DNA of 57,602 nt from Candidatus Kaiserbacteria bacterium (lineage in GTDB: Bacteria; Patescibacteriota; Minisyncoccia; Phycocordibacterales; UBA2100). The notes under the pieces are model-generated. The model worked only from the letters and a program-made list of their open reading frames with translations. It made no database searches and was not told the origin of the DNA. Location of the stretch: NCBI GenBank assembly GCA_003164215.1, contig PLSR01000017.1, positions 148,029 through 205,630 of the forward strand, in the 5' to 3' direction. Both the position numbers and the translations under genes were made by a program. Shown here one piece after another: positions 6,311-56,481 of the stretch. The number at the start of each line of letters is the position of its first letter. The first letter of the stretch is position 1.

Positions 6311-6356
6311 CCTACCAAGCTCTGAGCTTTGTATACTAAGCTCAGAGCTTGGTAGG
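6311..6356. terminator. perfect 19-bp stem, 8-nt loop hairpin between the convergent glk and dedA genes
   Basis: cctaccaagctctgagctt / aagctcagagcttggtagg. Both arms recur inside the 90-bp direct repeats at 54.9 and 55.7 kb. Confidence 0.6.
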
Positions 6357-6367
6357 GATTTTATGGC

Positions 6368-6979
6368 TTAATTACGCGCTTGCGGTTTACGCAATTCCCA
6401 AAAAATTGGCAGAAGGCTCACGATGATGATGATAAGAATGATCGGGGTGAGATAGTGCTCGATAATTGGCACGCGTTCCCCGAGAAAAAATCCGATGAAC
6501 GTGAGACCCGCGGCCCAGAGAAAACCGCCCGTGATGTTGTATGCGAGGAAGGTGCGGTAACGCATGTTGGCGATGCCCGCGATGATCGGTGCAAACGTGC
6601 GTACGATTGGAATGAATCGAGCAAGAACGACTGCGAGTACCCCGTGTTTCTCATAGAAATCCTTTGCTTGCTCAAGGTATGCGTGTTTGAAGAATCGCGA
6701 ATCTTTTTTGAAGAAAAGTGATACGCCGACGGTGTGGCCGAACCAGTATCCGGCACTATCGCCGCCGACCGCCGCGACGGCCAAGAGGGGAATGAGGATC
6801 CAAATATTGAACAATCCCTGCGTCGCCAATAAGCCTGCGGTAAAGAGCATTGATGAGCCGGGCAAGAAAAAGCCGAAGAAGACTCCGGACTCAAGGAATA
6901 CCGCAGCAAATAATCCGGGATACCCCACAAATTCGACGAGATGCACAAGTCCGCCGTGCGCGAGTATTTGGGTGAACAT
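6368..6979 (-). CDS. DedA-family (SNARE-associated) inner-membrane protein
   Basis: 203 aa, multi-pass, with a typical DedA core (GFFLPGSSMLFTAG...ARFIPIVRTFAPIIAG). Confidence 0.8.
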   Translation of the reverse strand: MFTQILAHGGLVHLVEFVGYPGLFAAVFLESGVFFGFFLPGSSMLFTAGLLATQGLFNIWILIPLLAVAAVGGDSAGYWFGHTVGVSLFFKKDSRFFKHAYLEQAKDFYEKHGVLAVVLARFIPIVRTFAPIIAGIANMRYRTFLAYNITGGFLWAAGLTFIGFFLGERVPIIEHYLTPIILIIIIVSLLPIFWELRKPQARN

Positions 6980-45850: not shown

Positions 45851-47509
45851 ATGGCACTCATCTATTTTTACGACGCGACCGATCTCGACAAGCTGCAGCT
45901 GAGCGATGCCTTGAAAGGTACCGATCATCACTGGGAATACAGAGAAGGGAAGTTGGAGCTCGACAACTGCGATCCGAACACGGAGGTCATTGGCGTTTTC
46001 ATTTCAAGCGCGGTCACCCGCGCCTGCATCGAAGCGATGCCGAAGCTGAAGCTCATCGCGTGCCGTTCGACCGGATTCAACAATGTCGATCTCGACGCTG
46101 CGCGCGAGCATGGCGTCACGGTGGTGAATGTTCCGACCTATGGCGAGAACACTGTCGCGGAGTATGCGTTCGCGCTTTTGTTGGCACTCGTGCGCAAGCT
46201 TCCGCAGGTCTTCGCGACCGAGAACGAACGATTTTCTTCCGACGCGCTCATCGGGCAGGACCTGCAAGGGAAAGTATTTGGCGTCATCGGCACTGGGCAC
46301 ATCGGTCAAAAAGCGCTGAAGATCGCGCACGGATTTTCTATGGACTCGATCGCATATGATGCGTTCCCGAAGGATGAGCTTCAGGCGGAATTCAATTTTA
46401 CGTACGTCGGGCTCGAGGAATTGATCGCACGGTCGGATATCATCTCACTGCATACGCCATACCTGCCATCCACACGCCACATCATCAATAGAGAGCGATT
46501 GGCCATGATGAAGCCCGGTGCACTTCTCATCAACACAGCGCGCGGTGAGCTCGTAGATACCGCGGCACTCGTCGAGAGTCTGGAGAATCATCACCTCGGC
46601 GGCGCGGCGCTCGACGTGGTAGAAGGCGAGGCGGTTTTGAATTATGCGGAAGAGATCGCGCTCTTGCGAAGCGGTACGCTTCCACCGGAAACACTGCGAC
46701 ACAGTGTGGAGATCTCGGCTCTCGAAAAAATGCCGAACGTGATCATCAGTCCGCACAATGCGTTCAATTCGACGGAAGCGATCCTGCGCATCAATCGAAC
46801 GACTGCACAGAACATCATCGACTTTTGGTATGGGAAAACGCCGAACAAAGTCGAAGCCGCCAAAAAATCCGCCGGGTCGCTTCTTGTCGTCCGCCATACC
46901 GAATCGGAATGGAACGCGCTCGGCAAATGGACGGGGATCACCGATGTGCACTTGAGCGATACTGGTTTCAAGGAGGCGGCACTATTTGGGGTCGCGCTCA
47001 AGGGACTTGATATCAACATTGACGTCGCCTTTTGCTCGCAGCAAATTCGCACGCGCGAGACGCTTGAGGGCATGCTTGATTCCGCTCAGCAATTCGGCGT
47101 CAACGTCACGACGAGCGGCGCCTTGAATGAACGTAATTATGGCGTTTTCACCGGCAAGAATAAATGGGAGATGAAGGATGCGATCGGGGAGGATGCTTTC
47201 AATGCTGTGCGACGCGGATGGGATGTTCCCATCGAGAACGGCGAGACTTTGAAGATGGTATATGAACGGGTAGTTCCTTTTTACAAAGAGACGATCGTGC
47301 CGCTTTTGAATGACGGTAAAAACGTTCTCATCGTTGCGCACGGCAACTCCATTCGGGCCCTCAAGAAATATATTGAATTCATCAGCGACAAAGACATCGC
47401 TGACCTCGAAATGCCGTTCGGCCAGATCATTGCTTACAGCGTCTCGCCGGAAGGTCTTAAGAAAAGCGCCATAACGACGACGATCAATGCGGCTCCGTCG
47501 AAGGCGTGA
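45851..47509 (+). CDS. fusion protein: D-isomer-specific 2-hydroxyacid dehydrogenase (LdhA/SerA-like) fused to 2,3-BPG-dependent phosphoglycerate mutase (histidine phosphatase)
   Basis: The N-terminal ~335 aa carry GVIGTGHIGQ (NAD), NTARGELVD and ISPHNAF. The C-terminal ~210 aa carry VVRHTESEWN, LNERNYG and VAHGNSIRAL, the dPGM motifs. It is one uninterrupted 552-codon ORF. Confidence 0.8.
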   Translation: MALIYFYDATDLDKLQLSDALKGTDHHWEYREGKLELDNCDPNTEVIGVFISSAVTRACIEAMPKLKLIACRSTGFNNVDLDAAREHGVTVVNVPTYGENTVAEYAFALLLALVRKLPQVFATENERFSSDALIGQDLQGKVFGVIGTGHIGQKALKIAHGFSMDSIAYDAFPKDELQAEFNFTYVGLEELIARSDIISLHTPYLPSTRHIINRERLAMMKPGALLINTARGELVDTAALVESLENHHLGGAALDVVEGEAVLNYAEEIALLRSGTLPPETLRHSVEISALEKMPNVIISPHNAFNSTEAILRINRTTAQNIIDFWYGKTPNKVEAAKKSAGSLLVVRHTESEWNALGKWTGITDVHLSDTGFKEAALFGVALKGLDINIDVAFCSQQIRTRETLEGMLDSAQQFGVNVTTSGALNERNYGVFTGKNKWEMKDAIGEDAFNAVRRGWDVPIENGETLKMVYERVVPFYKETIVPLLNDGKNVLIVAHGNSIRALKKYIEFISDKDIADLEMPFGQIIAYSVSPEGLKKSAITTTINAAPSKA

Positions 47510-48869: not shown

Positions 48870-51233
48870 ATGCATACCTATATAAAGTTCTTTAAAGACA
48901 TCGTCCTCGCCGACATTCCGGAAGTGGGCGGCAAGAATGCCTCTCTGGGGGAAATGGTCCACTATTTGGCACCACAGGGAGTCAATCTGCCGAACGGTTT
49001 CGCGACCACGGCCAAAGCATACTATTACTTCCTCGAGAAAGCGGGCATCAAGGATGAGATCGCGCAGATCTTGAGCACGATCAACGTCAACGACGTCACC
49101 GACGCCGAGCCGAAAGCCGCGCGCATCCGTCAGCTCATCATCGACGCCAAGTTCCCTGAAGATTTCGAAGCGGAGGTCCGCCAGGGCTACCAGGAGCTCT
49201 GCAAGATCTGCGGCCAAGAGAATCTCATCGTCGCCATTCGCTCCAGTGCGACCGCCGAAGACCTTCCGAACGCGTCTTTTGCCGGCCAGCAGGAATCATT
49301 CCTCAATATTTCCGGCGAGGAAGACGTCATCCTCTCGGCCAAGAAGTGCATCGCATCGCTCTTCACTGATCGCGCGATCACGTATCGCGTCAACAACGGC
49401 TTCGACCACACGAAGATCGCGCTCTCCGTCGGCGTTCAGCAGATGGTCGCTGTGCACGCGCATGCCGCAGGCGTCATGTTCACCATTGATACCGAATCCG
49501 GCTTCAAGAACGCGGTCGTCGTGAGCGCGGTCTACGGCCTCGGTGAGAACATCGTCTTGGGCCATGCCAATCCTGATGAATTCACCGTCTTCAAGCCGAC
49601 GATGGCGATCATCCGCCGCAAGCTCGGTTCCAAGAAAGTGAAAATGATTCCGGTCGCCAACGACAAGACCGAGAATCTCGAAGTCCCGCTCGAAGACCAG
49701 CGCAAGTACGCGATCACCGACGAGCAGGTGAAGACGCTCGCCACGTGGGCCGTCGCCATCCATGAGCACTATGGCAAACCGATGGACATCGAATGGGCGC
49801 TCGACGAAGTTGACGGCAAAATGTACATCGTGCAGGCGCGCGCCGAGACGGTGCAATCGCGCAAAAATCCGAACGAGATCGAAGCGTATGTGCTGATGGG
49901 CAACGGTCCGCTCCTTACGAAAGGTACACGTGTCGGCAATAAGATCGGCGCCGGCAAAGCGACTCGCATCATGAATCTCAAAGAGATCGGCAAATTCAAT
50001 GACGGCGATGTCCTCGTGACGGAAATGACCGACCCGGACTGGGTCGAGATCATGCGGCGCGCGAGTGCGGTCGTCACTGATAAGGGCGGACGCACCTGCC
50101 ACGCCGCGATCGTCTCCCGCGAGCTCGGGATCCCGTGCGTCGTCGGCACTGCCGATGCGACGGCCAAGATCCCCGACGGCAGCGACGTCACGGTGACCTG
50201 CGCCGGCGGCAACGAGGGCATCGTCTACGGTGGCATTCTCAAATACGAAGTCCACAAGACCGACATTCAAAATCTCCCGAAGACCAAGACGAAGATCATG
50301 ATGAACGTCGGCTCTCCTGACCTCGCGTTCGAATACTCGCAGATCCCCAACGACGGCGTCGGCCTCGCACGCGAGGAATTCATCATTGATTCGCACATCA
50401 AGATCCACCCGATGGCACTCCTCAAATTCGACGAGCTTCAGGATCAGGAGGCGAAGAAGACGATCGAAGACCTCACGATGGGCTACACCGACAAAGCGCA
50501 GTACTACGTCGACAAGCTCGCCGAAGGCATCGCGACGATCGGCGCGGCGTTCCATCCGCGCGACGTCATCATCCGCTTCAGCGACTTCAAGACCAACGAA
50601 TACGCCAATCTTATCGGCGGCAAGCAGTTCGAGCCGGAGGAGAACAACCCGATGATCGGTTGGCGCGGAGCGAGCCGCTACTACGATCCGAAATTCCAAG
50701 CGGCCTTCGAGCTCGAGTGCCGCGCATTCTTGAAGTGCCGCAACGAAATGGGGCTCACCAACATTAAAGCGATGATCCCGTTCTGCCGCACGCTCGACGA
50801 GGCGCGCAAGTGCCTCGGCGTGATGGAAGGGCAGGGGCTCCGCCGCGGTGAGAACGGCTTCGAGGTCTACGTCATGTGCGAGATCCCGGCCAACGTCATC
50901 CTTGCGAGCCAGTTCGCCGACCTCTTCGACGGTTTCTCGATAGGATCGAACGATCTCACTCAGCTCGCGCTCGGCGTCGACCGCGACAACAGCGCGGTCG
51001 CGCATGTGTACAGCGAGAGCAACGAGGCGGTGAAGGAGCTCATTCGCACGGTCGTCAAAGTCGCGCACGAGAAGCACGTGAAGATCGGCCTCTGCGGCCA
51101 GGCGCCGTCGGACAATCCCGAATTCGCGGCGTTCCTCGTCGAGATCGGCATCGACAGCATGTCGCTCGCACCTGATTCCGTCATTCAAACGACGATCCAG
51201 ACCAAGGAGATCGAAGATCGATTGGGGCGCTAA
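48870..51233 (+). CDS. ppsA: phosphoenolpyruvate synthase (pyruvate, water dikinase)
   Basis: 787 aa. GGKNASLGEM, phospho-His region GGRTCHAAIVSRELGIP and a C-terminal PEP-utilising domain. Confidence 0.95.
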   Translation: MHTYIKFFKDIVLADIPEVGGKNASLGEMVHYLAPQGVNLPNGFATTAKAYYYFLEKAGIKDEIAQILSTINVNDVTDAEPKAARIRQLIIDAKFPEDFEAEVRQGYQELCKICGQENLIVAIRSSATAEDLPNASFAGQQESFLNISGEEDVILSAKKCIASLFTDRAITYRVNNGFDHTKIALSVGVQQMVAVHAHAAGVMFTIDTESGFKNAVVVSAVYGLGENIVLGHANPDEFTVFKPTMAIIRRKLGSKKVKMIPVANDKTENLEVPLEDQRKYAITDEQVKTLATWAVAIHEHYGKPMDIEWALDEVDGKMYIVQARAETVQSRKNPNEIEAYVLMGNGPLLTKGTRVGNKIGAGKATRIMNLKEIGKFNDGDVLVTEMTDPDWVEIMRRASAVVTDKGGRTCHAAIVSRELGIPCVVGTADATAKIPDGSDVTVTCAGGNEGIVYGGILKYEVHKTDIQNLPKTKTKIMMNVGSPDLAFEYSQIPNDGVGLAREEFIIDSHIKIHPMALLKFDELQDQEAKKTIEDLTMGYTDKAQYYVDKLAEGIATIGAAFHPRDVIIRFSDFKTNEYANLIGGKQFEPEENNPMIGWRGASRYYDPKFQAAFELECRAFLKCRNEMGLTNIKAMIPFCRTLDEARKCLGVMEGQGLRRGENGFEVYVMCEIPANVILASQFADLFDGFSIGSNDLTQLALGVDRDNSAVAHVYSESNEAVKELIRTVVKVAHEKHVKIGLCGQAPSDNPEFAAFLVEIGIDSMSLAPDSVIQTTIQTKEIEDRLGR

Positions 51234-51253
51234 CCAATAATCAAAGTCCAAAG

Positions 51254-51280
51254 AAAAACACCCGGTGAGGGTGTTTTTCT
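51254..51280 (+). terminator. rho-independent terminator of ppsA
   Basis: acaccc-ggtga-gggtgt followed by a T-run. Confidence 0.65.
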
Positions 51281-51311
51281 TTATATTTGTTTGCTCTGTT
51301 ACAATGGTCAT

Positions 51312-51947
51312 ATGAAGGCGATTGCATTTATCGATGCCTCCAATTTATTCTACGGAGGTAAGAAGTCGCTCGGCTGGAGTATCGATTACCAGGAACTGCT
51401 AACGTACCTTAATGAAAAGTATGGTATTGGAAAAGCATATTTTTTCGGCGGTGTTGAGGTGTATCGTTTTGATTTTGACTACCTAACATACGATTCAGTC
51501 CCTATACGGCAGCTGGAAACCTATCTCGTCGAGTTGATCGAGCACGATGGTTCCCGAATGAGTGAAGCAAAGCTACTGCTTTTGGATCGTCACCTTAAGC
51601 GTGTCCGTTTTTATGCACTGCTTGAACAATTTGGCTATTCACTCATTCTGAAACCCGTGAAGACGTATCGTGACGAGGATGGCAACCAAACTCGAAAGGC
51701 GAACTGTGATGTTGATATGTCGTTCTGCATGATGAAAGAGCGCGAAAGTTACAGTCGAGCTGTCGTGTTGTCCGGCGATGGAGACTTCCTTCCGGTGCTC
51801 AAGTTTTTGAAGAAAAGCGGTAAAGAGGTGATCGTCCTTGCTCGAAGTGCCCGTACCGCAAAAGAGATCAAACAGTTCGCGGGCAGTAATTTTAGGGATT
51901 TTGAATATTTGCGAGAGCGCCTCAAGCGTGACGAACCAGAGCAGTAA
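51312..51947 (+). CDS. NYN-domain (LabA/DUF88-like, PIN-fold) putative ribonuclease
   Basis: AFIDASNLFYG...KANCDVDMSF...AVVLSGDGDFLPVLKFLKKSGKEVIVLA carries the NYN acidic-residue pattern. GC is visibly low (hand count 51/120 over the first 120 nt). TACAAT lies 7 nt before the ATG and there is no Shine-Dalgarno. Confidence 0.75.
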   Translation: MKAIAFIDASNLFYGGKKSLGWSIDYQELLTYLNEKYGIGKAYFFGGVEVYRFDFDYLTYDSVPIRQLETYLVELIEHDGSRMSEAKLLLLDRHLKRVRFYALLEQFGYSLILKPVKTYRDEDGNQTRKANCDVDMSFCMMKERESYSRAVVLSGDGDFLPVLKFLKKSGKEVIVLARSARTAKEIKQFAGSNFRDFEYLRERLKRDEPEQ

Positions 51948-52082
51948 GAATGTCTGCGGTATATAGCAAACAGCGAGCGGCACCCATATAGGATGCCGCT
52001 CAGGTCTGATGTGCTCAGTGTAGATGTAAAAGGTGAAAAGTCAATGAATTTAAGGTGGTGACAACTCCACGAGGTTCAACCG

Positions 52083-52223
52083 TGCGGTCAGGCTCCGTCC
52101 GACAATCCCGAATTCGCAGCCTTCCTCGTAGAGATCGGTATCGACAGCATGTCGCTCGCACCGGATTCCGTCATCCAAACGACGATCCAGACCAAAGAGA
52201 TCGAAGACCGCCTGGGCCGCTAA
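52083..52223 (+). pseudogene. ppsA: detached second copy of the last 46 codons plus stop of ppsA
   Basis: Collinear with 51093-51233 at an offset of 990 nt. 14 nucleotide differences, all synonymous. The similarity continues about 40 nt past the stop codon. Confidence 0.9.
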
Positions 52224-52415
52224 TCAATTAGCAACGTTAAAGAAAGACGCCCGGGAGGGGGTGATCTGGCAAAATACTCTTTAATTTTATCGGGCTATTC
52301 GTCAAATCTTAGTTTGGCAGAGGCGGAACTGCTTGTAAAAAAGGCGGCCGAGGATGCCCGAAAGGCACCAGGTGTTGGTGCATTGGGTGATTATTATATT
52401 TTGCCAGAAAAAGTT

Positions 52416-52516
52416 GGATGATTGGGGTCTGACCCCACAAAAGTTCAGGAATCGTGTTGCAAAAATCATTAGAGGGAATTGGGGTCGTTGTTTGAGCTAG
52501 GTTTCGCCTCGCTCGC
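52416..52516. repeat. island intergenic element, copy 1 (full length)
   Basis: ggatgattGGGGTCTGACCCCacaaaagttcaggaatcg...gaggg aattgggg...tttgagctaggtttcgcctc. Compare copies 2 and 3. Confidence 0.85.
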
Positions 52517-52517
52517 C

Positions 52518-52551
52518 CAAAAAGAAGAACCGCCTCAACATGAGACGGTTC
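52518..52551 (-). terminator. rho-independent terminator of orphan gene b
   Basis: Minus strand: gaaccgtctc-atgtt-gaggcggttc followed by TTCTTTTTGG. Confidence 0.7.
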
Positions 52552-52580
52552 AGAAGAACGTTCGTCGGCTGGCTCGTGAG

Positions 52581-53105
52581 TCAGAGCTTCTTGCGCAACT
52601 CCATTTGTCGGAGTCCGTCGAGGATCTGATGCGCCGCATTGCCCGGATCTTCCAGGCCAGCTGCGGCGCGCGCCGAAACAGAATCGATGTGGTCGGCGGC
52701 CTCGAGATCGCGGGTCGTGAACTCCTTGCCTTTCGACAGGATCTCCTTCAGCGCGCGATAATTCCTCGCATCGATGACGCCGCAGTAGAGGAGGATGTCG
52801 GAGTAATCGACTGCCTCCCGGTACATCATTCGAAGTAGGGGACGGCGGGTCTTAATGACATCCCACGCGTTTCGAGCGTCTCGGAAGTCGTGAACGAAAT
52901 TGTTCAGCATATCCTCGTTGATGATCCCGCGTTCCGCAGCGAGGTTGAGCAGGTCAGCCGACGCGCGGAGGTTCCTGAAGTATTCGCCGGCCGTATTTGC
53001 CTCCGGCCCTTGAATCATCGAGATCTCGACTTTGGTCATTGCGCTCGCTCCTCCATTGAGCACGAGTAAAGCCAGAATAGCTGCTAGTGCGGCGCCTTGC
53101 TCCAT
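52581..53105 (-). CDS. orphan secreted protein (island gene b)
   Basis: 174 aa from ATG 53105. Signal-like MEQGAALAAILALLVLNGGASA. Has its own promoter and terminator. No family recognised. Confidence 0.6.
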   Translation of the reverse strand: MEQGAALAAILALLVLNGGASAMTKVEISMIQGPEANTAGEYFRNLRASADLLNLAAERGIINEDMLNNFVHDFRDARNAWDVIKTRRPLLRMMYREAVDYSDILLYCGVIDARNYRALKEILSKGKEFTTRDLEAADHIDSVSARAAAGLEDPGNAAHQILDGLRQMELRKKL

Positions 53106-53152
53106 GGCTATTCCTTTCGACAAGCCAGAATGGCTCGAAATGTTCTTACGTA

Positions 53153-53180
53153 ATACTACACGAAATACGACATGAGTCAA
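53153..53180 (-). promoter_or_regulatory. sigma70-like promoter TTGACT-16-TAGTAT for gene b
   Basis: Read on the minus strand, immediately downstream of element copy 2. Confidence 0.45.
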
Positions 53181-53191
53181 TAGTGAATTTT

Positions 53192-53284
53192 GATCTGACC
53201 CCACAAAAGTTCAGGAATCGTGTTGCAAAAAGCATGAGAGGGAATTGGGGCTGGTCATCATTTCGTGGCGAGGTTTCGCCTCGC
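53192..53284. repeat. island intergenic element, copy 2 (left palindrome half degenerate)
   Basis: About 57/60 identical to copy 1 over tctgaccccacaaaagttcaggaatcgtgttgcaaaaa.cat.agagggaattgggg. Confidence 0.85.
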
Positions 53285-53292
53285 GTTAGCTT

Positions 53293-53336
53293 AAAACAGA
53301 AAACCCACCGAAGCGGATCTTCCGCTTTGATGGGTT
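53293..53336 (-). terminator. rho-independent terminator of gene c (shared module, copy 1)
   Basis: Minus strand: ~16-bp imperfect stem (aacccatcaaagcgga/tccgcttcggtgggtt) followed by TTCTGTTTT. It abuts the stop codon. Confidence 0.75.
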
Positions 53337-53551
53337 CAGGAGCCGCGAACCATTCGTTCGAGAATCTCCGCTTGGTTCCTCGTGATCGTTCCGACGGCGT
53401 CGTAGAGCGGGTCGAAGAAGTCGTCGCCCGCAGCGATCGCTCCGGAAAGCGTGAAGAGAATTGCGGCAGACTTCCAGACCATCGGGTCGGGATTATCCTT
53501 TTCCGCCGTCGCGAGAGCCTTGACCGCTTCTCGGAATTCCTTGCGATCCAT
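53336..53551 (-). CDS. orphan small protein (island gene c)
   Basis: 71 aa with a consensus promoter upstream and a terminator downstream. Ends in ...RGS, like gene e (...IGS). Confidence 0.55.
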   Translation of the reverse strand: MDRKEFREAVKALATAEKDNPDPMVWKSAAILFTLSGAIAAGDDFFDPLYDAVGTITRNQAEILERMVRGS

Positions 53552-53589
53552 TCGAGTTCTCCAGCTTTGTGCGGCATTGCACTGCCGCC

Positions 53590-53618
53590 ATTATAGCATA
53601 ATAAAATCATATTGTCAA
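53590..53618 (-). promoter_or_regulatory. perfect consensus sigma70 promoter TTGACA-17-TATAAT for gene c
   Basis: Minus strand: ttgacaatatgattttattatgctataat. Confidence 0.7.
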
Positions 53619-53624
53619 ACATAC

Positions 53625-53683
53625 GGATGACTGGGGTCTGACCCCAGAAAAGTTCAGGAATCGTTTGAGCTAGGTTTCGCCTC
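53625..53683. repeat. island intergenic element, copy 3 (short form, lacks a ~36-nt internal segment)
   Basis: ggatgacTGGGGTCTGACCCCAgaaaagttcaggaatcg|tttgagctaggtttcgcctc. It sits exactly between the two divergent -35 boxes. Confidence 0.85.
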
Positions 53684-53694
53684 AGCCGCGGGCG

Positions 53695-53722
53695 TTGACA
53701 GACGTCATTAAAGATTTATAAT
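53695..53722 (+). promoter_or_regulatory. near-consensus sigma70 promoter TTGACA-16-TATAAT for gene d
   Basis: ttgacagacgtcattaaagatttataat. Confidence 0.65.
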
Positions 53723-53782
53723 ACTTTGAGATAAATTTGATCGCTGGCACAGGCCTTCGATCCGCGCAGTGGGAGCCATCCA

Positions 53783-54679
53783 ATGACCAAAAGCGAAAAG
53801 ATGACCGCGCAGCGCGTCGAAAGTCTGACGCGCGGCGGAATGGAATTGTTCTGCAAGATATTGTGGTGTGCAGCGCCGCCTGAGGTACAGGTGAAGTATC
53901 CGCGATTCGCTGACGGCGACGTGGTCATCGATGAAAAGTTTCTCGATGGCGTGAAGGACGAGGACATAACGGGATTCCGACTCGCCCTCAAGATACTTTT
54001 TGAAGTCGACGACTCGTTCAAGGCGGCGGACTACATCCGTGATGAAGGGTCGAACACTATGCTCGTCGACGTCTCGCTCATCGCGTGCCGTCTCGGGAGC
54101 CCCGGATCGATGGGCGATGTCGAGTGCTACTTCTTGCGTGAGCTTGATCGGGAACGTGCCGAGCTCAAATCCCTCAAGAAGTCCGCCGCGCTGGACACAC
54201 CGCCGAAGTGGATCCTGAAGTACGTCGGGAGAGGTTTGGCCCGCTACGAACATCTGAAAGAGCTCCGCGCTCCTGAACTCGTCATCAAGAACGAGATCAA
54301 AATGTGGGGCGGCGCCAAAGATCTTTCGCTGAATGAACGGGCAACCATCGTTCTGAAGCGCATGATCAGAAGTCAGAAATCCGCCGTTGCCTCGCTCGAA
54401 GGGATCCTGGCCGAACTCCCGAAGGGCAACTTCACTCCGGCCATGTTGCTTCTCGGCGAAAGTCTTGAAGCTTCGGCCCACGAGTTCGAAGATGTGCGGT
54501 CGGGTGAATTCTTCGACATGAAGACGGGGAGGATGAGAACGAAGAGCGGCGAGCTCTCGGAGTTCGTTCGCACCTCAAAGAAGGGAGGACTCTTCTTCGA
54601 CAGAGACGCGATCGGAACCGGTTACCAGTTCTTCAGGGCACTGCTCGATGTCCTTCAACCAACTGTCGGCAGAGCCTGA
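53783..54679 (+). CDS. orphan protein (island gene d)
   Basis: 298 aa. GGGAG Shine-Dalgarno, GC-rich third codon positions on this strand, and a terminator at 54703-54733. No family recognised. Confidence 0.65.
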   Translation: MTKSEKMTAQRVESLTRGGMELFCKILWCAAPPEVQVKYPRFADGDVVIDEKFLDGVKDEDITGFRLALKILFEVDDSFKAADYIRDEGSNTMLVDVSLIACRLGSPGSMGDVECYFLRELDRERAELKSLKKSAALDTPPKWILKYVGRGLARYEHLKELRAPELVIKNEIKMWGGAKDLSLNERATIVLKRMIRSQKSAVASLEGILAELPKGNFTPAMLLLGESLEASAHEFEDVRSGEFFDMKTGRMRTKSGELSEFVRTSKKGGLFFDRDAIGTGYQFFRALLDVLQPTVGRA

Positions 54680-54702
54680 ACTCGCCGATCAGATCAAACT
54701 CG

Positions 54703-54733
54703 CACTCCGCCCCCCGGCGGAGTGTTTCTTTTT
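54703..54733 (+). terminator. rho-independent terminator of gene d
   Basis: cactccgcc-cccc-ggcggagtg followed by tttcttttt. Confidence 0.8.
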
Positions 54734-54900
54734 AGGTATTGAATCGGCTTCCTCATACTTAAAAAGAAGAACCGTCCGCCGCGGGGAAATGCCGTCAGAT
54801 ACCTTTTCTTTCTATTCTCTAATTCACCACTAGAGCACCTCCCATTTCTACGATCACTTTGTGATCAAGAAAAGTAGGTCGCGCGCGAATAAGCGAATAG

Positions 54901-54990
54901 TTCGCCAAGCTCTGAGCTTGGTAGGGATTTCATGGCCCCGTTAAGCGATTTCGGTTTTCAGTTTTTTACCAAGCTCTGAGCTTTGTAGTT
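54901..54990 (+). repeat. 90-bp perfect direct repeat, copy 1
   Basis: Identical base for base to 55658-55747. Contains the 17-mer CCAAGCTCTGAGCTTGG and a second near-copy 63 nt later. Confidence 0.95.
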
Positions 54991-55002
54991 CATCACGGTA
55001 TT

Positions 55003-55044
55003 AAACAGAAAACCCACCGAAGCGGGTCTTCCGCCTGGTGGGTT
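55003..55044 (-). terminator. rho-independent terminator of gene e (shared module, copy 2)
   Basis: The first ~25 nt on the + strand (ttaaacagaaaacccaccgaagcgg) are nearly identical to 53291-53316. Confidence 0.7.
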
Positions 55045-55580
55045 CATGAGCCAATTCTTGATCTTCGTTTGATCAGTTCGACCGCGCGATCGAAACCCGC
55101 CACGAAGTCCGGGAGAGATGCGTCGAGGATCTTCACGATATCGTCTTCGGTCGTGCCGCCCGAGTCGTTCAACTCGACCTCATCCATGGACTTGCGCCCG
55201 CCGAAGACCTTCTCAGGTTCTGTGATCTCCTGCGTTTGCAGCGGACCTTTGACTGACCCGATCACCGATTCTGACGACCACTTGAAGAGGTCGGCCATGA
55301 GGTCCATGGCCTCTTCCGGTGTCCGTGCGAATGCTTGAACGACAGGCCACACCTTGTCGAACAGGAGTGTCCAGAGCCAATTATCCTGCGTCAGCGAGCC
55401 GTTGTAGAGCGGCCGACCGATGTTCCGCTGCCGCGCGAAGAATTCCGTAAAGGCCATGCAGAGCAGCACCTGCGCGTCGCCGTATTGGTTGGTCTCGTCC
55501 AGCTCGTCGTAGAAGACGCGCTTAATTCTATTCAAGAACTCCTGGCGCTCCGCGCCGCGCTTCATCCATGCCTCGGTCAT
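55044..55580 (-). CDS. orphan protein (island gene e), bracketed by the 90-bp direct repeats
   Basis: 178 aa from ATG 55580 with a GGGAG Shine-Dalgarno. No family recognised. Confidence 0.6.
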   Translation of the reverse strand: MTEAWMKRGAERQEFLNRIKRVFYDELDETNQYGDAQVLLCMAFTEFFARQRNIGRPLYNGSLTQDNWLWTLLFDKVWPVVQAFARTPEEAMDLMADLFKWSSESVIGSVKGPLQTQEITEPEKVFGGRKSMDEVELNDSGGTTEDDIVKILDASLPDFVAGFDRAVELIKRRSRIGS

Positions 55581-55657
55581 CGAATTACTCCCTCGATGTG
55601 TCCCGCCGTGCCGGGCTCTGGCGACACGGTACAACATTCGTTGATACTTGTCCCGCC

Positions 55658-55747
55658 TTCGCCAAGCTCTGAGCTTGGTAGGGATTTCATGGCCCCGTTA
55701 AGCGATTTCGGTTTTCAGTTTTTTACCAAGCTCTGAGCTTTGTAGTT
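55658..55747 (+). repeat. 90-bp perfect direct repeat, copy 2
   Basis: Identical to 54901-54990, at an offset of 757 nt. Confidence 0.95.
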
Positions 55748-55854
55748 TTTTGACGCTTGACTGCGCGGACGCGAGATGAAATCTTTATGAATGTAGGTCT
55801 TTGTCAGTTTTTCAGGTTGAACGTTAGTTTCTCAGACCAGACGGGAGAACTTCG

Positions 55855-56289
55855 ATGCACAGATTTCTGATCATCGTGACAGCTGCGGTCGTGTTTGCCT
55901 CGGCTGTGGTCGCCGGCGAACCTCCGCACCAGTTCAGTCAGCCGCCTCCACCCGAGGGGACAGAAGCTATCTCGTTCGAGCACAAGACGATCGTGTGCAA
56001 GAACCTCGACGCGGTCAAGGCGATCGTCGTTGCCGGCAAAGAGTCCGCCGGTGCATTCGACGATCAATTCGCCGTGTTCGCAGAGAAGAAAGCATGTCTT
56101 CCCGATTATGTGTACGTCAACGGCGTGACCGTCGGCGAAAGCGTTGATCTCGGCGTGAATGTGATCGGCGGCATTCGTCGGCATGACTACGCCGTCCATG
56201 TCGGGAACATCAACGAGGAATTTTATGTTTTGTACGAGCAGGGTGAGATCCCTGACGTTCAAGCAGAAGGAGATGGCACGCCCATCTGA
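55855..56289 (+). CDS. orphan secreted protein (island gene f)
   Basis: 144 aa. Signal peptide MHRFLIIVTAAVVFASAVVA. Terminator at 56324-56352. Confidence 0.6.
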   Translation: MHRFLIIVTAAVVFASAVVAGEPPHQFSQPPPPEGTEAISFEHKTIVCKNLDAVKAIVVAGKESAGAFDDQFAVFAEKKACLPDYVYVNGVTVGESVDLGVNVIGGIRRHDYAVHVGNINEEFYVLYEQGEIPDVQAEGDGTPI

Positions 56290-56323
56290 GGTCTACCGTG
56301 AGTCTAATGGATCCTCGCGACAC

Positions 56324-56352
56324 AAATGCACTCCCGCAGTGGGGGTGCATTT
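56324..56352 (+). terminator. 12-bp hairpin downstream of gene f
   Basis: aaatgcactccc-gcagt-gggggtgcattt. Confidence 0.55.
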
Positions 56353-56481
56353 ATGTTATGTGAAGTAATAACGCGTTTTCCACTTCCCTCAAAAAGGCCT
56401 CAAAAGCGGTGGTATTATGGGGCATAAGATACGTGCCCTGGATGATAGGTTCGTCGCGCGCATCCATATCTTCATTCCATT

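What the first reader, a model, noticed from the sequence alone, without database searches (positions are those of the whole stretch)
51093..52263. Low-GC NYN-nuclease gene bracketed by two copies of the ppsA 3' end that differ only synonymously
The last 46 codons plus the stop of ppsA (51093-51233), together with about 40 nt of 3' flank, recur exactly 990 nt downstream (52083-52263).

In the coding part I count 14 nucleotide differences and no indels. Every difference is synonymous: ggc/ggt, gcg/gct, tcg/tcc, gcg/gca, gcg/gcc, gtc/gta, ggc/ggt, cct/ccg, att/atc, aag/aaa, gat/gac, cga/cgc, ttg/ctg, ggg/ggc. About 10% divergence with no amino-acid change means both copies evolved as part of a functional ppsA, presumably in different lineages. 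The downstream copy's terminator is decayed: it has no T-tract.

The only gene between the copies is an NYN/LabA-like PIN-fold nuclease. It has clearly lower GC than its surroundings. A TACAAT box sits 7 nt before its ATG and there is no Shine-Dalgarno, so it looks leaderless.

This is the attL/attR-type footprint of an element that inserts into the 3' end of a gene and brings a replacement 3' end with it. The unit is only about 1 kb and encodes no recombinase. It may therefore be a minimal selfish or mobilised nuclease cassette, or the last remnant of a larger island.
Basis: partly seen in the sequence, partly recalled or inferred. Interest (0 to 1): 0.7.

Follow-up and report, generated by a model that had tools for sequence, protein, structure and literature searches.

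The report
Mobile nuclease-sRNA cassette duplicating ppsA end
A 0.75-kb two-gene cassette (a PIN-fold nuclease plus a newly noticed small antisense RNA) lies behind ppsA in a Saccharibacteria genome, between two slightly different copies of that gene's end; related cassettes in other ultra-small bacteria are flanked by duplicated host sequence in about a quarter of loci, which suggests selfish genes can move there without a recombinase.

Summary
Window 51093-51233 (the last 46 ppsA codons plus the stop) recurs at 52083-52223. There are 14 differences and all are synonymous. This is very unlikely under in-place decay of a duplicate (P about 1e-6).

Between the copies lie two genes, not one: a leaderless NYN/LabA-like nuclease gene and a convergent ~45-nt small RNA gene. 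The RNA gene has its own consensus promoter and a hairpin that covaries. It is absent from Rfam.

This gene pair is conserved in about 80 Patescibacteria loci, which fall into 48 different genomic contexts. In 12 of 46 non-redundant loci the pair is bracketed by imperfect direct repeats of host sequence. Shifted controls give 1 of 160. The repeats are usually a neighbouring gene's end or terminator. Where they are coding, synonymous changes again dominate.

The three closest ppsA relatives lack the cassette and the second copy. No recombinase is nearby.

The best reading is a selfish, probably toxin-antitoxin-like module that entered by "insertion with long target duplication". That route is known for restriction-modification systems and is mirrored by fungal mitochondrial mobile ORFs. 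One ppsA copy comes from another lineage through homologous recombination.

Which copy is native stays unresolved. Read-level checks were not possible.

The parts
48870..51233 (+). ppsA (phosphoenolpyruvate synthase), intact at 787 aa
   Evidence: ORF. Pfam PPDK_N, PEP-utilizers and PEP-utilizers_C. Same length as relatives that are 70-98% identical.
51093..51273 (+). Repeat copy 1: the last 46 ppsA codons plus stop (to 51233) and about 40 nt of 3' flank
   Evidence: It is 93.6% identical to the empty-site relative L171, which is typical for the rest of the gene (93.2 +/- 2.5%).
51250..51282 (+). ppsA intrinsic terminator: a 14-bp stem followed by a T-run
   Evidence: z -5.06. The same hairpin follows ppsA in L171 and L005.
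51297..51305 (+). Extended -10 promoter box (TGT-TACAAT) of the leaderless NYN mRNA
   Evidence: Read from the sequence. A -10 box at the same distance from the ATG occurs in nearly all homologous loci, without a Shine-Dalgarno.
51312..51947 (+). NYN/LabA-like PIN-fold nuclease gene, 211 aa
   Evidence: PF01936 E 2e-17. D8, N11, D133, D135, D156 and D158 are invariant. AlphaFold model pLDDT 85. Best fold matches are 2qip (LabA-like VPA0982) and T5 flap endonuclease.
51966..52010 (-). Small RNA gene of about 45 nt, convergent with NYN: 5' tail AUCAGACCUG, a 12-bp hairpin (51974-52002) and a U-run
   Evidence: 7 of 12 pairs show compensatory changes; z -5.0; the covariance model hits only beside NYN genes. 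No Rfam match. The ends are inferred from the promoter and terminator, not from RNA data.
52017..52044 (-). Sigma-70-type promoter of the small RNA: TTGACT, 16 nt, TACACT
   Evidence: TTGACA-17-TATAAT stands at the same position in 67 distinct homologous loci.
52045..52082 (.). 38-nt spacer between the cassette and repeat copy 2, holding the left junction of the orphan copy
   Evidence: The equivalent spacer varies in length in other loci; in the junctions read it was 0 to about 60 nt.
52083..52262 (+). Repeat copy 2: an orphan ppsA 3' end (coding-like part to 52223) with a non-folding terminator remnant. Not translatable.
   Evidence: It is 90.8% identical to L171. It is also present in the independent assembly L002.
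52264..54801 (.). Variable region absent from the empty-site relative L171. It holds three ORFs without any family match (52581-53204 minus, 53336-53551 minus, 53783-54679 plus) and three copies of a 60-100-nt repeat. Its link to the cassette is unresolved.
54802..54899 (+). First sequence downstream of ppsA that is shared again with L171 (90% identity)

Best explanation
The feature is a compact, self-contained two-gene module of about 750 nt (51297-52044). It holds a leaderless NYN/LabA-like PIN-fold nuclease gene and a convergent ~45-nt cis-antisense small RNA gene. The two genes share one hairpin.

The module sits directly behind the ppsA terminator and is bracketed by a duplication of the target, about 180 nt: the last 46 ppsA codons plus the terminator stem.

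The module most likely behaves as a selfish addiction or defence unit. In this reading the nuclease is the toxin and the strongly promoted antisense RNA is the antidote, acting on the 3' end of the nuclease mRNA.

The module encodes no recombinase. It entered by "insertion with long target duplication", using host recombination. The duplicated host segment serves as the homology arm, through Campbell-type or ends-in integration of a circularised or permuted DNA piece taken up from a related Saccharibacteria lineage. That is why the two ppsA ends are alleles from two lineages and differ only synonymously. ppsA stays intact, and one copy is left as an untranslated orphan.

Shown: the anatomy of the unit; its conservation; the enrichment of flanking host repeats; the foreign-allele nature of one copy; and the absence of the unit from close relatives.

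Inferred: the toxin-antidote function, the circular or ends-in intermediate, and the route of DNA entry.
For: All 14 differences between the copies are synonymous, with P about 1e-6 under in-place decay.

Orphan gene ends at two other NYN loci show the same bias. L135 has 10 synonymous and 3 non-synonymous changes in 28 codons. L097 has 5 synonymous and 2-3 non-synonymous.

The NYN gene plus small RNA is a constant pair. A consensus promoter, a 5' tail, a covarying hairpin and a U-run are seen in 67 distinct loci. The covariance model hits only beside NYN genes, and nowhere in 1.2 Mb of NYN-less loci.

The family is leaderless. The catalytic residues are invariant. The fold is PIN/FEN-like.

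The pair occurs in 48 context groups among 76 loci.

Flanking direct repeats of host sequence occur in 12 of 46 non-redundant loci, against 1 of 160 shifted controls (Fisher p 5e-8). The repeats are 17-146 nt long and 87-98% identical. They are unrelated in sequence between loci. They mostly cover a neighbouring gene's stop, terminator or start, and most are spaced 820-1040 nt apart.

The closest ppsA relatives lack both NYN and the second copy: L171 at 98% aa, L005 at 91% and L172 at 86%.

No recombinase was found within 10 kb or among the island ORFs.

An independent assembly that differs at 6 SNPs has the identical ppsA-NYN-copy 2 structure. The longest exact word shared by the copies is 23 nt, too short to cause a k-mer misjoin.

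Precedents exist. Restriction-modification units are inserted with long, variable target duplications that span stop or start codons, mostly in naturally competent species (PMC2853133). Fungal mitochondrial mobile ORFs show the order gene core, inserted C-terminus, endonuclease ORF, native C-terminus, with synonymous differences (PMC3630166).
Against: No expression, toxicity or nuclease data exist, so the toxin-antidote role rests on architecture alone. NYN proteins are not classic type I toxins.

NYN GC tracks host GC (r 0.82). Most copies are therefore long-term residents and movement may be rare.

Only about a quarter of loci show repeats.

The nearest empty site (L171) does not continue with the sequence to the right of copy 2. 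About 2.5 kb more differs, so the insertion cannot be reduced cleanly to cassette plus duplication.

A single crossover inside the repeat is only hinted at: 10 of 11 strong/weak sites fit, p 0.057. Comparison with L171 and L005 does not back it.

Duplications of 17-27 nt are short for RecA-driven integration.

How the first duplication at each new site arises is unknown.
Confidence: 0.55

Rival explanations
1. Homing-type element. In this reading the NYN/FEN-like nuclease itself cuts or processes DNA at the target. The cassette is then copied in together with a donor-derived replacement 3' end of ppsA (copy 1), and the native end (copy 2) is displaced. Fungal mitochondrial mobile endonuclease ORFs work this way.
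For: The topology is the same as mitochondrial mORFs: gene core, inserted C-terminus, nuclease ORF, native C-terminus, with synonymous divergence. The fold search places the protein next to T5 flap endonuclease, with two long inserted helices at residues 65-107. At the last seven differing codons, four copy-2 codons are clearly host-preferred.
Against: Closely related NYN proteins sit in 48 different contexts with unrelated flanking repeats. A sequence-specific homing enzyme should keep one target. NYN domains characterised so far are RNases (own knowledge). Copy 1 and its terminator match the relatives at least as well as copy 2 does. The small RNA is conserved rather than variable, so it cannot guide the nuclease to varying targets.
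Confidence: 0.15
2. Remnant of a larger integrase-driven island that integrated into the ppsA 3' end by an attL/attR-type event and has since lost its recombinase. The NYN cassette would be just surviving cargo.
For: Compared with L171, the window has about 3.5 kb extra, holding orphan ORFs, repeats and strong promoters. Some NYN homologues lie a few kb from large serine recombinase genes, in L086/L087 and L120. Integration into gene 3' ends with a carried replacement end is classic, for example e14/phage 21 in icd (own knowledge).
Against: Copy 2 lies inside the extra region, not at its far end. In at least 10 other loci the repeats enclose only the 0.8-1.0 kb cassette. No recombinase-like ORF was found with Pfam, NCBIfam, PHROGs or PADLOC. 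The family is nearly absent from viral contigs (2 loci), and from phage and plasmid records.
Confidence: 0.12
3. Ordinary insertion with a perfect long target duplication in this lineage. One copy was later overwritten by routine allelic homologous recombination with a related strain's ppsA end. The cassette itself never carried host DNA.
For: This explains synonymous-only differences without any special intermediate. Restriction-modification precedents start with near-identical repeats. Natural transformation with homologous recombination has been reported for Saccharibacteria (own knowledge).
Against: It needs a recombination tract that ends within a few tens of bases of the cassette, and needs this repeatedly at several independent loci. 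Such an exchange with a cassette-free allele would more easily delete the cassette. It also leaves the primary duplication mechanism unexplained. It overlaps largely with the best explanation, since both invoke recombination between lineages.
Confidence: 0.13
4. Assembly artefact: a chimeric join of two strain variants at the ppsA end.
For: The sequence comes from a metagenome assembly. Strain variation exists, since an alternative assembly differs at 6 SNPs. That other assembly's contig breaks at 52514, inside a repeat.
Against: Two assemblies from different pipelines give the identical ppsA-NYN-copy 2 sequence. The longest exact match between the copies is 23 nt. A chimera would not explain why copy 2 begins mid-gene right after the cassette. 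It would also not explain why the same architecture recurs at many unrelated loci and samples.
Confidence: 0.03

Closest known systems
"Insertion with long target duplication" of restriction-modification gene complexes (Nobusato et al. 2000; Furuta, Abe and Kobayashi 2010, PMC2853133)
   Same: A small selfish gene unit with no transposase or integrase is flanked by long direct repeats of the target. The repeats vary in length and are unrelated in sequence between loci. They often span a neighbouring gene's stop or start, so that gene stays intact. Flanking repeats are statistically enriched relative to other genes. Most cases are in naturally transformable bacteria.
   Different: The cargo here is a NYN nuclease plus an antisense small RNA, not a restriction-modification pair. 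The hosts are Patescibacteria. The two repeat copies are less alike (90%) than copy 1 is to an empty-site relative (93.6%), and they differ only synonymously. So one copy is a foreign allele rather than a fresh duplicate.
Mobile endonuclease ORFs (mORFs) in fungal mitochondrial genes such as atp6, atp9, cox2 and nad3 (Paquin et al. 1994; Beaudet et al. 2013, PMC3630166)
   Same: The order of parts is identical: gene core, one C-terminal end, nuclease ORF of about 1 kb, second C-terminal end. The divergence between the two ends is largely synonymous and is attributed to horizontal transfer.
   Different: Those nucleases are LAGLIDADG or GIY-YIG homing enzymes with a fixed target. They are often fused in frame to the host gene. 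Here the nuclease is a NYN/PIN-fold protein with its own promoter, many different targets, and a partner small RNA.
Prophage or island integration into a gene's 3' end with a carried replacement end (e14/phage 21 in icd of E. coli; own knowledge)
   Same: The 3' end of a metabolic gene is duplicated, the differences are mostly synonymous, and the gene remains functional.
   Different: Those elements need an element-encoded integrase and a defined att core, and they are tens of kb long. None of this is present here.
Type I toxin-antitoxin loci with convergent, 3'-overlapping antisense RNA (Bacillus txpA/RatA, bsrG/SR4; own knowledge)
   Same: The toxin gene and a small antisense RNA are transcribed convergently and overlap at the 3' end. 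The RNA has a strong promoter. The locus is compact and lies in accessory regions.
   Different: Type I toxins are small membrane peptides. Here the putative toxin is a 211-aa nuclease. Neither toxicity nor an antidote effect has been tested.

Membership tests
NYN domain nucleases (Pfam PF01936, LabA-like branch) | Significant match to the family profile | tested here: met
   64.3 bits against a curated cutoff of 24.2, E 2.3e-17. The PADLOC NYN model matches at E 4e-11.
NYN domain nucleases (Pfam PF01936, LabA-like branch) | Conserved acidic active-site residues and a PIN-like fold | tested here: met
   D8, N11, D133, D135, D156 and D158 are invariant in 15 homologues. The model (pLDDT 85) best matches 2qip, E 4e-7, then T5 flap endonuclease.
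NYN domain nucleases (Pfam PF01936, LabA-like branch) | Ribonuclease activity | not testable with these tools
   Needs a biochemical assay. The FEN-like fold match leaves DNA-flap substrates open.
Insertion with long target duplication (criteria of Furuta et al. 2010) | Inserted unit under 20 kb with no transposase or integrase | tested here: met
   There are about 810 nt between the repeats. No mobility gene was found within 10 kb.
Insertion with long target duplication (criteria of Furuta et al. 2010) | Direct repeat longer than 30 bp made of target sequence | tested here: met
   141 nt of coding sequence plus about 40 nt of flank. Repeats of 24-146 nt occur at other loci.
Insertion with long target duplication (criteria of Furuta et al. 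2010) | A related genome with an empty site whose single copy aligns with both repeats and both outer flanks | tested here: inconclusive
   L171 has one ppsA end, no NYN and a matching left flank. Its right flank resumes only at window 54802, not at 52264.
Insertion with long target duplication (criteria of Furuta et al. 2010) | Cargo is a restriction-modification system | tested here: not met
   The cargo is a NYN nuclease plus a small RNA.
Site-specific integrative element (attL/attR) | Element-encoded or adjacent recombinase | tested here: not met
   None was found in Pfam, NCBIfam, PHROGs or PADLOC scans of the island ORFs. None appears among the annotated genes within 10 kb.
Site-specific integrative element (attL/attR) | A common core sequence at the junctions of related elements | tested here: not met
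   The flanking repeats at WIN, L085, L097, L107, L111, L135, L139, L153, L156 and L157 are unrelated sequences. This rests on inspection only; no motif search was run.
Free-standing homing endonuclease / mitochondrial mORF | Order of parts: gene core, C-terminal end, nuclease ORF, second C-terminal end | tested here: met
   compare.
Free-standing homing endonuclease / mitochondrial mORF | LAGLIDADG, GIY-YIG or HNH nuclease, with one conserved target site for related enzymes | tested here: not met
   The fold is NYN/PIN. There are 48 context groups in 76 loci.
Type I toxin-antitoxin system | Antisense RNA gene overlapping the toxin transcript | tested here: inconclusive
   A convergent promoter, hairpin and U-run lie 19-100 nt past the NYN stop and are conserved and covarying. 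Transcripts were not observed.
Type I toxin-antitoxin system | Small hydrophobic peptide toxin | tested here: not met
   The protein is a 211-aa soluble nuclease fold.
Type III toxin-antitoxin system (ToxIN-like) | Tandem RNA repeats upstream of an endoribonuclease toxin that processes them | tested here: not met
   There is a single RNA unit, downstream and on the opposite strand.

The most novel reading that the evidence does not exclude
NYN-sRNA cassettes may be a previously unrecognised class of autonomous, recombinase-free mobile elements of Patescibacteria. In this reading the FEN-like NYN nuclease itself drives insertion, for example by processing flaps or staggered breaks so that 20-180 nt of target is duplicated. 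The small RNA would control or license the nuclease. Each cassette would carry a piece of its former host's gene as its homing arm.
Probability: 0.15. Interest if true: 0.85.

Novelty: new variant of a known kind. Interest (0 to 1): 0.62.

Why it matters
Patescibacteria have tiny genomes and few recognisable mobile elements, so how their accessory genes move is poorly understood.

This locus, with its roughly 80 relatives, shows a defined 0.75-kb gene pair turning up in dozens of genomic contexts. It is often wrapped in a duplicated piece of its insertion site, which keeps the neighbouring gene intact. The footprint extends "insertion with long target duplication" beyond restriction-modification systems, to a nuclease and small RNA pair and to a new phylum.

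The all-synonymous divergence adds direct evidence that the duplicated arm can be a foreign allele. This links the footprint to homologous recombination between lineages.

The work also uncovers a conserved, structured small RNA that is missing from Rfam, together with a family-wide leaderless nuclease. That combination gives a concrete, testable candidate for an RNA-controlled toxin or defence module in organisms where some Saccharibacteria can now be transformed.

Tried and rejected
- **Deciding which copy is native.**
  - Codon-usage signs suggested a mosaic. Copy 1 is host-like at the first 7 differing codons, and copy 2 at 4 of the last 7. The single-breakpoint test is only p 0.057.
  - Relatives L171 and L005 match copy 1 at most of the right-half sites, which contradicts a simple reciprocal crossover.
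  - Identity to L171 is 93.6% for copy 1 and 90.8% for copy 2. Both fall inside the gene-wide spread. Left unresolved.
- **Recombinase search.** Pfam, NCBIfam, PHROGs and PADLOC scans of all ORFs from 51.3 to 56.3 kb found none.
- **Known RNA families.** Rfam at gathering and at permissive thresholds gave no family for the small RNA or for the other repeats. The only hits were weak, below-threshold ones on the ppsA terminator.
- **Phage or plasmid carriage.**
  - 2 loci in 2.9 million viral contigs.
  - No phage record.
  - Only homologues of 27% identity or less on proteobacterial plasmids.
- **tRNA target.** The window has no tRNA. The tRNA-like repeat of L111 is not a called tRNA.
- **Low GC as proof of recent transfer.** Weakened, because NYN GC follows host GC (r 0.82) with a constant offset.
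- **Xer/dif-type or integron-type modules.** Considered and dropped, because the repeats share no common site.
- **Island ORFs in relatives.** They have no homologues in any of 82 relatives' ppsA loci.

Full report
**1. The observation.**
The window holds an intact 787-aa ppsA gene at 48870-51233. Its last 46 codons plus the stop (51093-51233) recur at 52083-52223, exactly 990 nt downstream and without indels. I count 14 differing nucleotides in 14 codons, and every one is synonymous. Homology starts sharply at 51093/52083. In the 3' flank it fades to about 70% identity, with a 1-nt shift, up to about 51272/52262.

Only 23-26% of random single-base changes in this segment would be synonymous. 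Fourteen of fourteen has P about 1e-9 if both copies drifted. It has P about 1e-6 if only the downstream copy drifted while the ppsA copy stayed constrained. The two copies therefore evolved as ends of working ppsA genes in different lineages.

Copy 2 cannot be translated in frame, because a TGA lies at 52059-52061 and no start codon follows before 52083.

The copy-1 flank is a strong intrinsic terminator (z -5.1). The copy-2 flank folds no better than shuffles (z -1.1) and has no T-run.

**2. Is it an assembly artefact?**
Reads cannot be mapped here. Three public contigs carry the gene. One of them comes from a different pipeline (L002, ERZ27254231, a megahit contig). It differs from the window at six clustered SNPs near 43.05 kb. 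It still has the identical ppsA-NYN-copy 2 sequence, and it ends only at 52514, inside an unrelated repeat. The longest exact word shared by the two copies is 23 nt, which is too short to mislead assembly at the larger k-mer sizes (up to 141) used for this contig. I rate a chimera as unlikely.

**3. What lies between the copies.**
The ORF at 51312-51947 is a NYN/LabA-like nuclease: PF01936, 64 bits against a cutoff of 24. Fifteen homologues share invariant D8, N11, D133, D135, D156 and D158. An AlphaFold model (pLDDT 85) best matches the LabA-like protein 2qip, and then T5 flap endonuclease. Two long helices are inserted at residues 65-107.

In nearly all of about 80 homologous loci an often extended -10 box ends 6-8 nt before the ATG, with no Shine-Dalgarno. 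In the window this box is TGT-TACAAT at 51297-51305.

*A second gene.*
Immediately after the NYN stop, every homologous locus carries the same elements. On the minus strand they read: TTGACA, 17 nt, TATAAT, about 6 nt, then 5'-ACUAAACGUG (AUCAGACCUG in the window's subfamily), a 12-bp hairpin, and a U-run. This describes a ~45-nt small RNA gene convergent with NYN. In the window:
- the promoter is at 52044-52017;
- the hairpin is at 52002-51974;
- the RNA spans roughly 52010-51966.

Seven of the 12 stem pairs show compensatory changes. A covariance model built from 30 copies finds the RNA beside every NYN gene tested, including loci not used to build it. It finds nothing in 1.2 Mb of NYN-less loci or elsewhere in the window. 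Rfam has no match.

So the unit is a two-gene module of about 750 nt, bounded by two outward-facing promoters.

**4. Relatives of the locus.**
The genome is a Saccharimonadales (Patescibacteria) MAG. None of 80 species-representative ppsA loci has a second ppsA end or an adjacent NYN gene.

The closest relatives all lack the cassette at this site:
- L171, with 98% aa identity and 93.2% nt identity across ppsA;
- L005, at 91% aa;
- L172, at 86% aa.

L171 and L005 keep the same terminator hairpin as copy 1.

Downstream, L171 becomes homologous to the window again only at 54802-54899. The window therefore carries about 3.5 kb extra relative to L171: the cassette, copy 2, and 2.5 kb holding three ORFs that match no family, plus repeats.

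*Which copy is native?*
- Copy 1 is 93.6% identical to L171 and copy 2 is 90.8%. Both lie within the gene-wide spread.
- Codon usage hints at a reciprocal crossover in the 23-nt identical core, but the test gives p 0.057.
- L171 and L005 side with copy 1 at most of the right-half sites.

I leave "which copy is native" open, with a slight lean to copy 1.

**5. The pattern is general.**
The NYN family has about 2,860 detected members. The top hits are 60-78% identical and come from Kaiserbacteria, Pacebacteria, Minisyncoccia and other groups. Eighty-odd loci were fetched. They fall into 48 context groups out of 76 loci.

I compared the sequence upstream of each NYN gene with the sequence downstream of the small RNA.
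- About 18 of 61 loci have a direct repeat scoring above every cross-locus control.
- With a stricter geometry and redundancy removed, the count is 12 of 46, against 1 of 160 for windows shifted within the same contigs (Fisher p 5e-8).

The repeats have these properties:
- They are 17-146 nt long and 87-98% identical.
- They are unrelated in sequence from locus to locus.
- They usually cover the stop codon or terminator of the upstream gene (window, L097, L107, L135), or the start of the downstream gene (L085).
- Most are spaced 820-1040 nt apart, so they enclose just the cassette.

Where the repeat is coding, the orphan copy again differs mostly synonymously. L135 has 10 synonymous and 3 non-synonymous changes in 28 codons. 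L097 has 5 and 2-3.

This recurrence is the main reason to prefer "minimal mobile cassette" over "remnant of a bigger island".

**6. Mechanism.**
No recombinase is present, and the junctions share no common site. This rules out an att-type system as the simplest reading.

The footprint matches "insertion with long target duplication", described for restriction-modification gene complexes. Those cases share these features (PMC2853133):
- small addiction units without mobility genes;
- long direct repeats of variable length;
- repeats that often span a stop or start codon;
- enrichment relative to other genes;
- occurrence mostly in naturally competent bacteria;
- a proposed life cycle of invasion, repeat-mediated amplification and release.

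It also mirrors fungal mitochondrial mobile endonuclease ORFs. These show the order gene core, inserted C-terminus, nuclease ORF, native C-terminus, with synonymous divergence ascribed to horizontal transfer (PMC3630166).

Here the two copies are less alike (90%) than copy 1 is to an empty-site relative. That points to recombination between lineages rather than a fresh duplication.

The model I commit to runs as follows. DNA holding the cassette plus a stretch of the donor's neighbouring gene end enters a related cell. It recombines through that stretch in a Campbell-type or ends-in manner. This regenerates a duplication whose two copies are donor and recipient alleles.

The convergent antisense RNA has a consensus promoter, while the leaderless nuclease gene has a weaker, extended -10 promoter. 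This is the layout of 3'-overlapping type I toxin-antitoxin loci (own knowledge). An addiction or defence function would explain why rare integrations persist. All functional statements here are inference.

**7. Caveats.**
- NYN GC follows host GC (r 0.82), with a constant offset of about -5.5 points. Low GC is therefore partly a family trait, and most copies are old residents.
- Three quarters of the loci show no repeat.
- The empty-site comparison is not clean, because of the extra 2.5 kb.
- The shortest repeats are short for RecA-driven integration.
- The origin of the first duplication at each site is unexplained.

**8. Verdict.**

The finding is a new variant of a known kind of recombinase-free gene mobility. 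It carries a new cargo, a NYN nuclease plus an undescribed small RNA, in a phylum where mobile elements are poorly known.

Interest is moderate to high.

Noticed in passing
window 51966-52044 (minus strand); all NYN loci L085-L170, L173, L174: A conserved ~45-nt small RNA gene lies convergent with every NYN gene. It has a consensus promoter, a 10-nt 5' tail, a covarying 12-bp hairpin and a U-run. It is not in Rfam. The tail differs between subfamilies: ACUAAACGUG in most, AUCAGACCUG in the window's.
   Followed up: yes
window 52416-52512, 53187-53284, 53625-53683: There are three copies of a 60-100-nt repeat that starts with the palindrome GGGGTCTGACCCC. The third copy has an internal deletion. 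The independent assembly L002 breaks at 52514, inside the first copy. There is no Rfam match and no significant fold.
   Followed up: partly
window 54901-54990 and 55658-55747; partial copy at 6338-6388: A 90-nt direct repeat, 100% identical, brackets the single orphan ORF 55044-55637 (minus strand). The repeat unit has terminal inverted CCAAGCTCTGAGCTTGG hairpins (fold z -4.1), so it looks like a MITE or REP element. A third, partial copy lies between convergent genes 45 kb away.
   Followed up: partly
window 53590-53618 (minus) and 53695-53722 (plus): Two divergent promoters each match the sigma-70 consensus at 12 of 12 positions. They flank the third repeat copy and face the orphan ORFs 53336-53551 (minus) and 53783-54679 (plus).
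   Followed up: no
window 53294-53344 and 55003-55052: Two different minus-strand orphan ORFs share a terminator-like element (about 90% identical).
   Followed up: no
window 51283-56400 versus L171, L172, L005: The interval between ppsA and the lactate permease gene is a variable hotspot. All repeats of 40 nt or more in the 57.6-kb window lie here, apart from the partial third copy of the 90-nt element at 6338-6388. All ORFs in the interval other than the NYN gene lack family matches. The three closest relatives each have different content after ppsA.
   Followed up: partly
window 45851-47509: A 552-aa fusion joins a D-2-hydroxyacid dehydrogenase to a histidine-phosphatase (phosphoglycerate-mutase-like) domain. 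It lies next to enolase, and relative L172 has the same fusion.
   Followed up: no
L120 2787-4442; L116/L118/L125 about 1829-2533; L086 12513 onward: Some NYN-sRNA cassettes lie 1-6 kb from a large serine recombinase gene. The gene is full length in L120, runs off the fetched locus in L086/L087, and is truncated in L116/L118/L125. These cassettes can therefore also ride inside integrative elements.
   Followed up: no
L111 218-276 and 1760-1818: The 59-nt flanking repeat (98% identical) looks like the 3' half of a tRNA on the minus strand, but ARAGORN does not call it as a tRNA. A real tRNA-His lies about 115 nt further on.
   Followed up: partly
NYN protein residues 65-107 (window 51504-51632): Two long helices are inserted into the PIN-like core. 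The fold search ranks T5 flap endonuclease second. This raises the possibility that the protein handles flapped or 5'-ended nucleic acids rather than plain single-stranded RNA.
   Followed up: no
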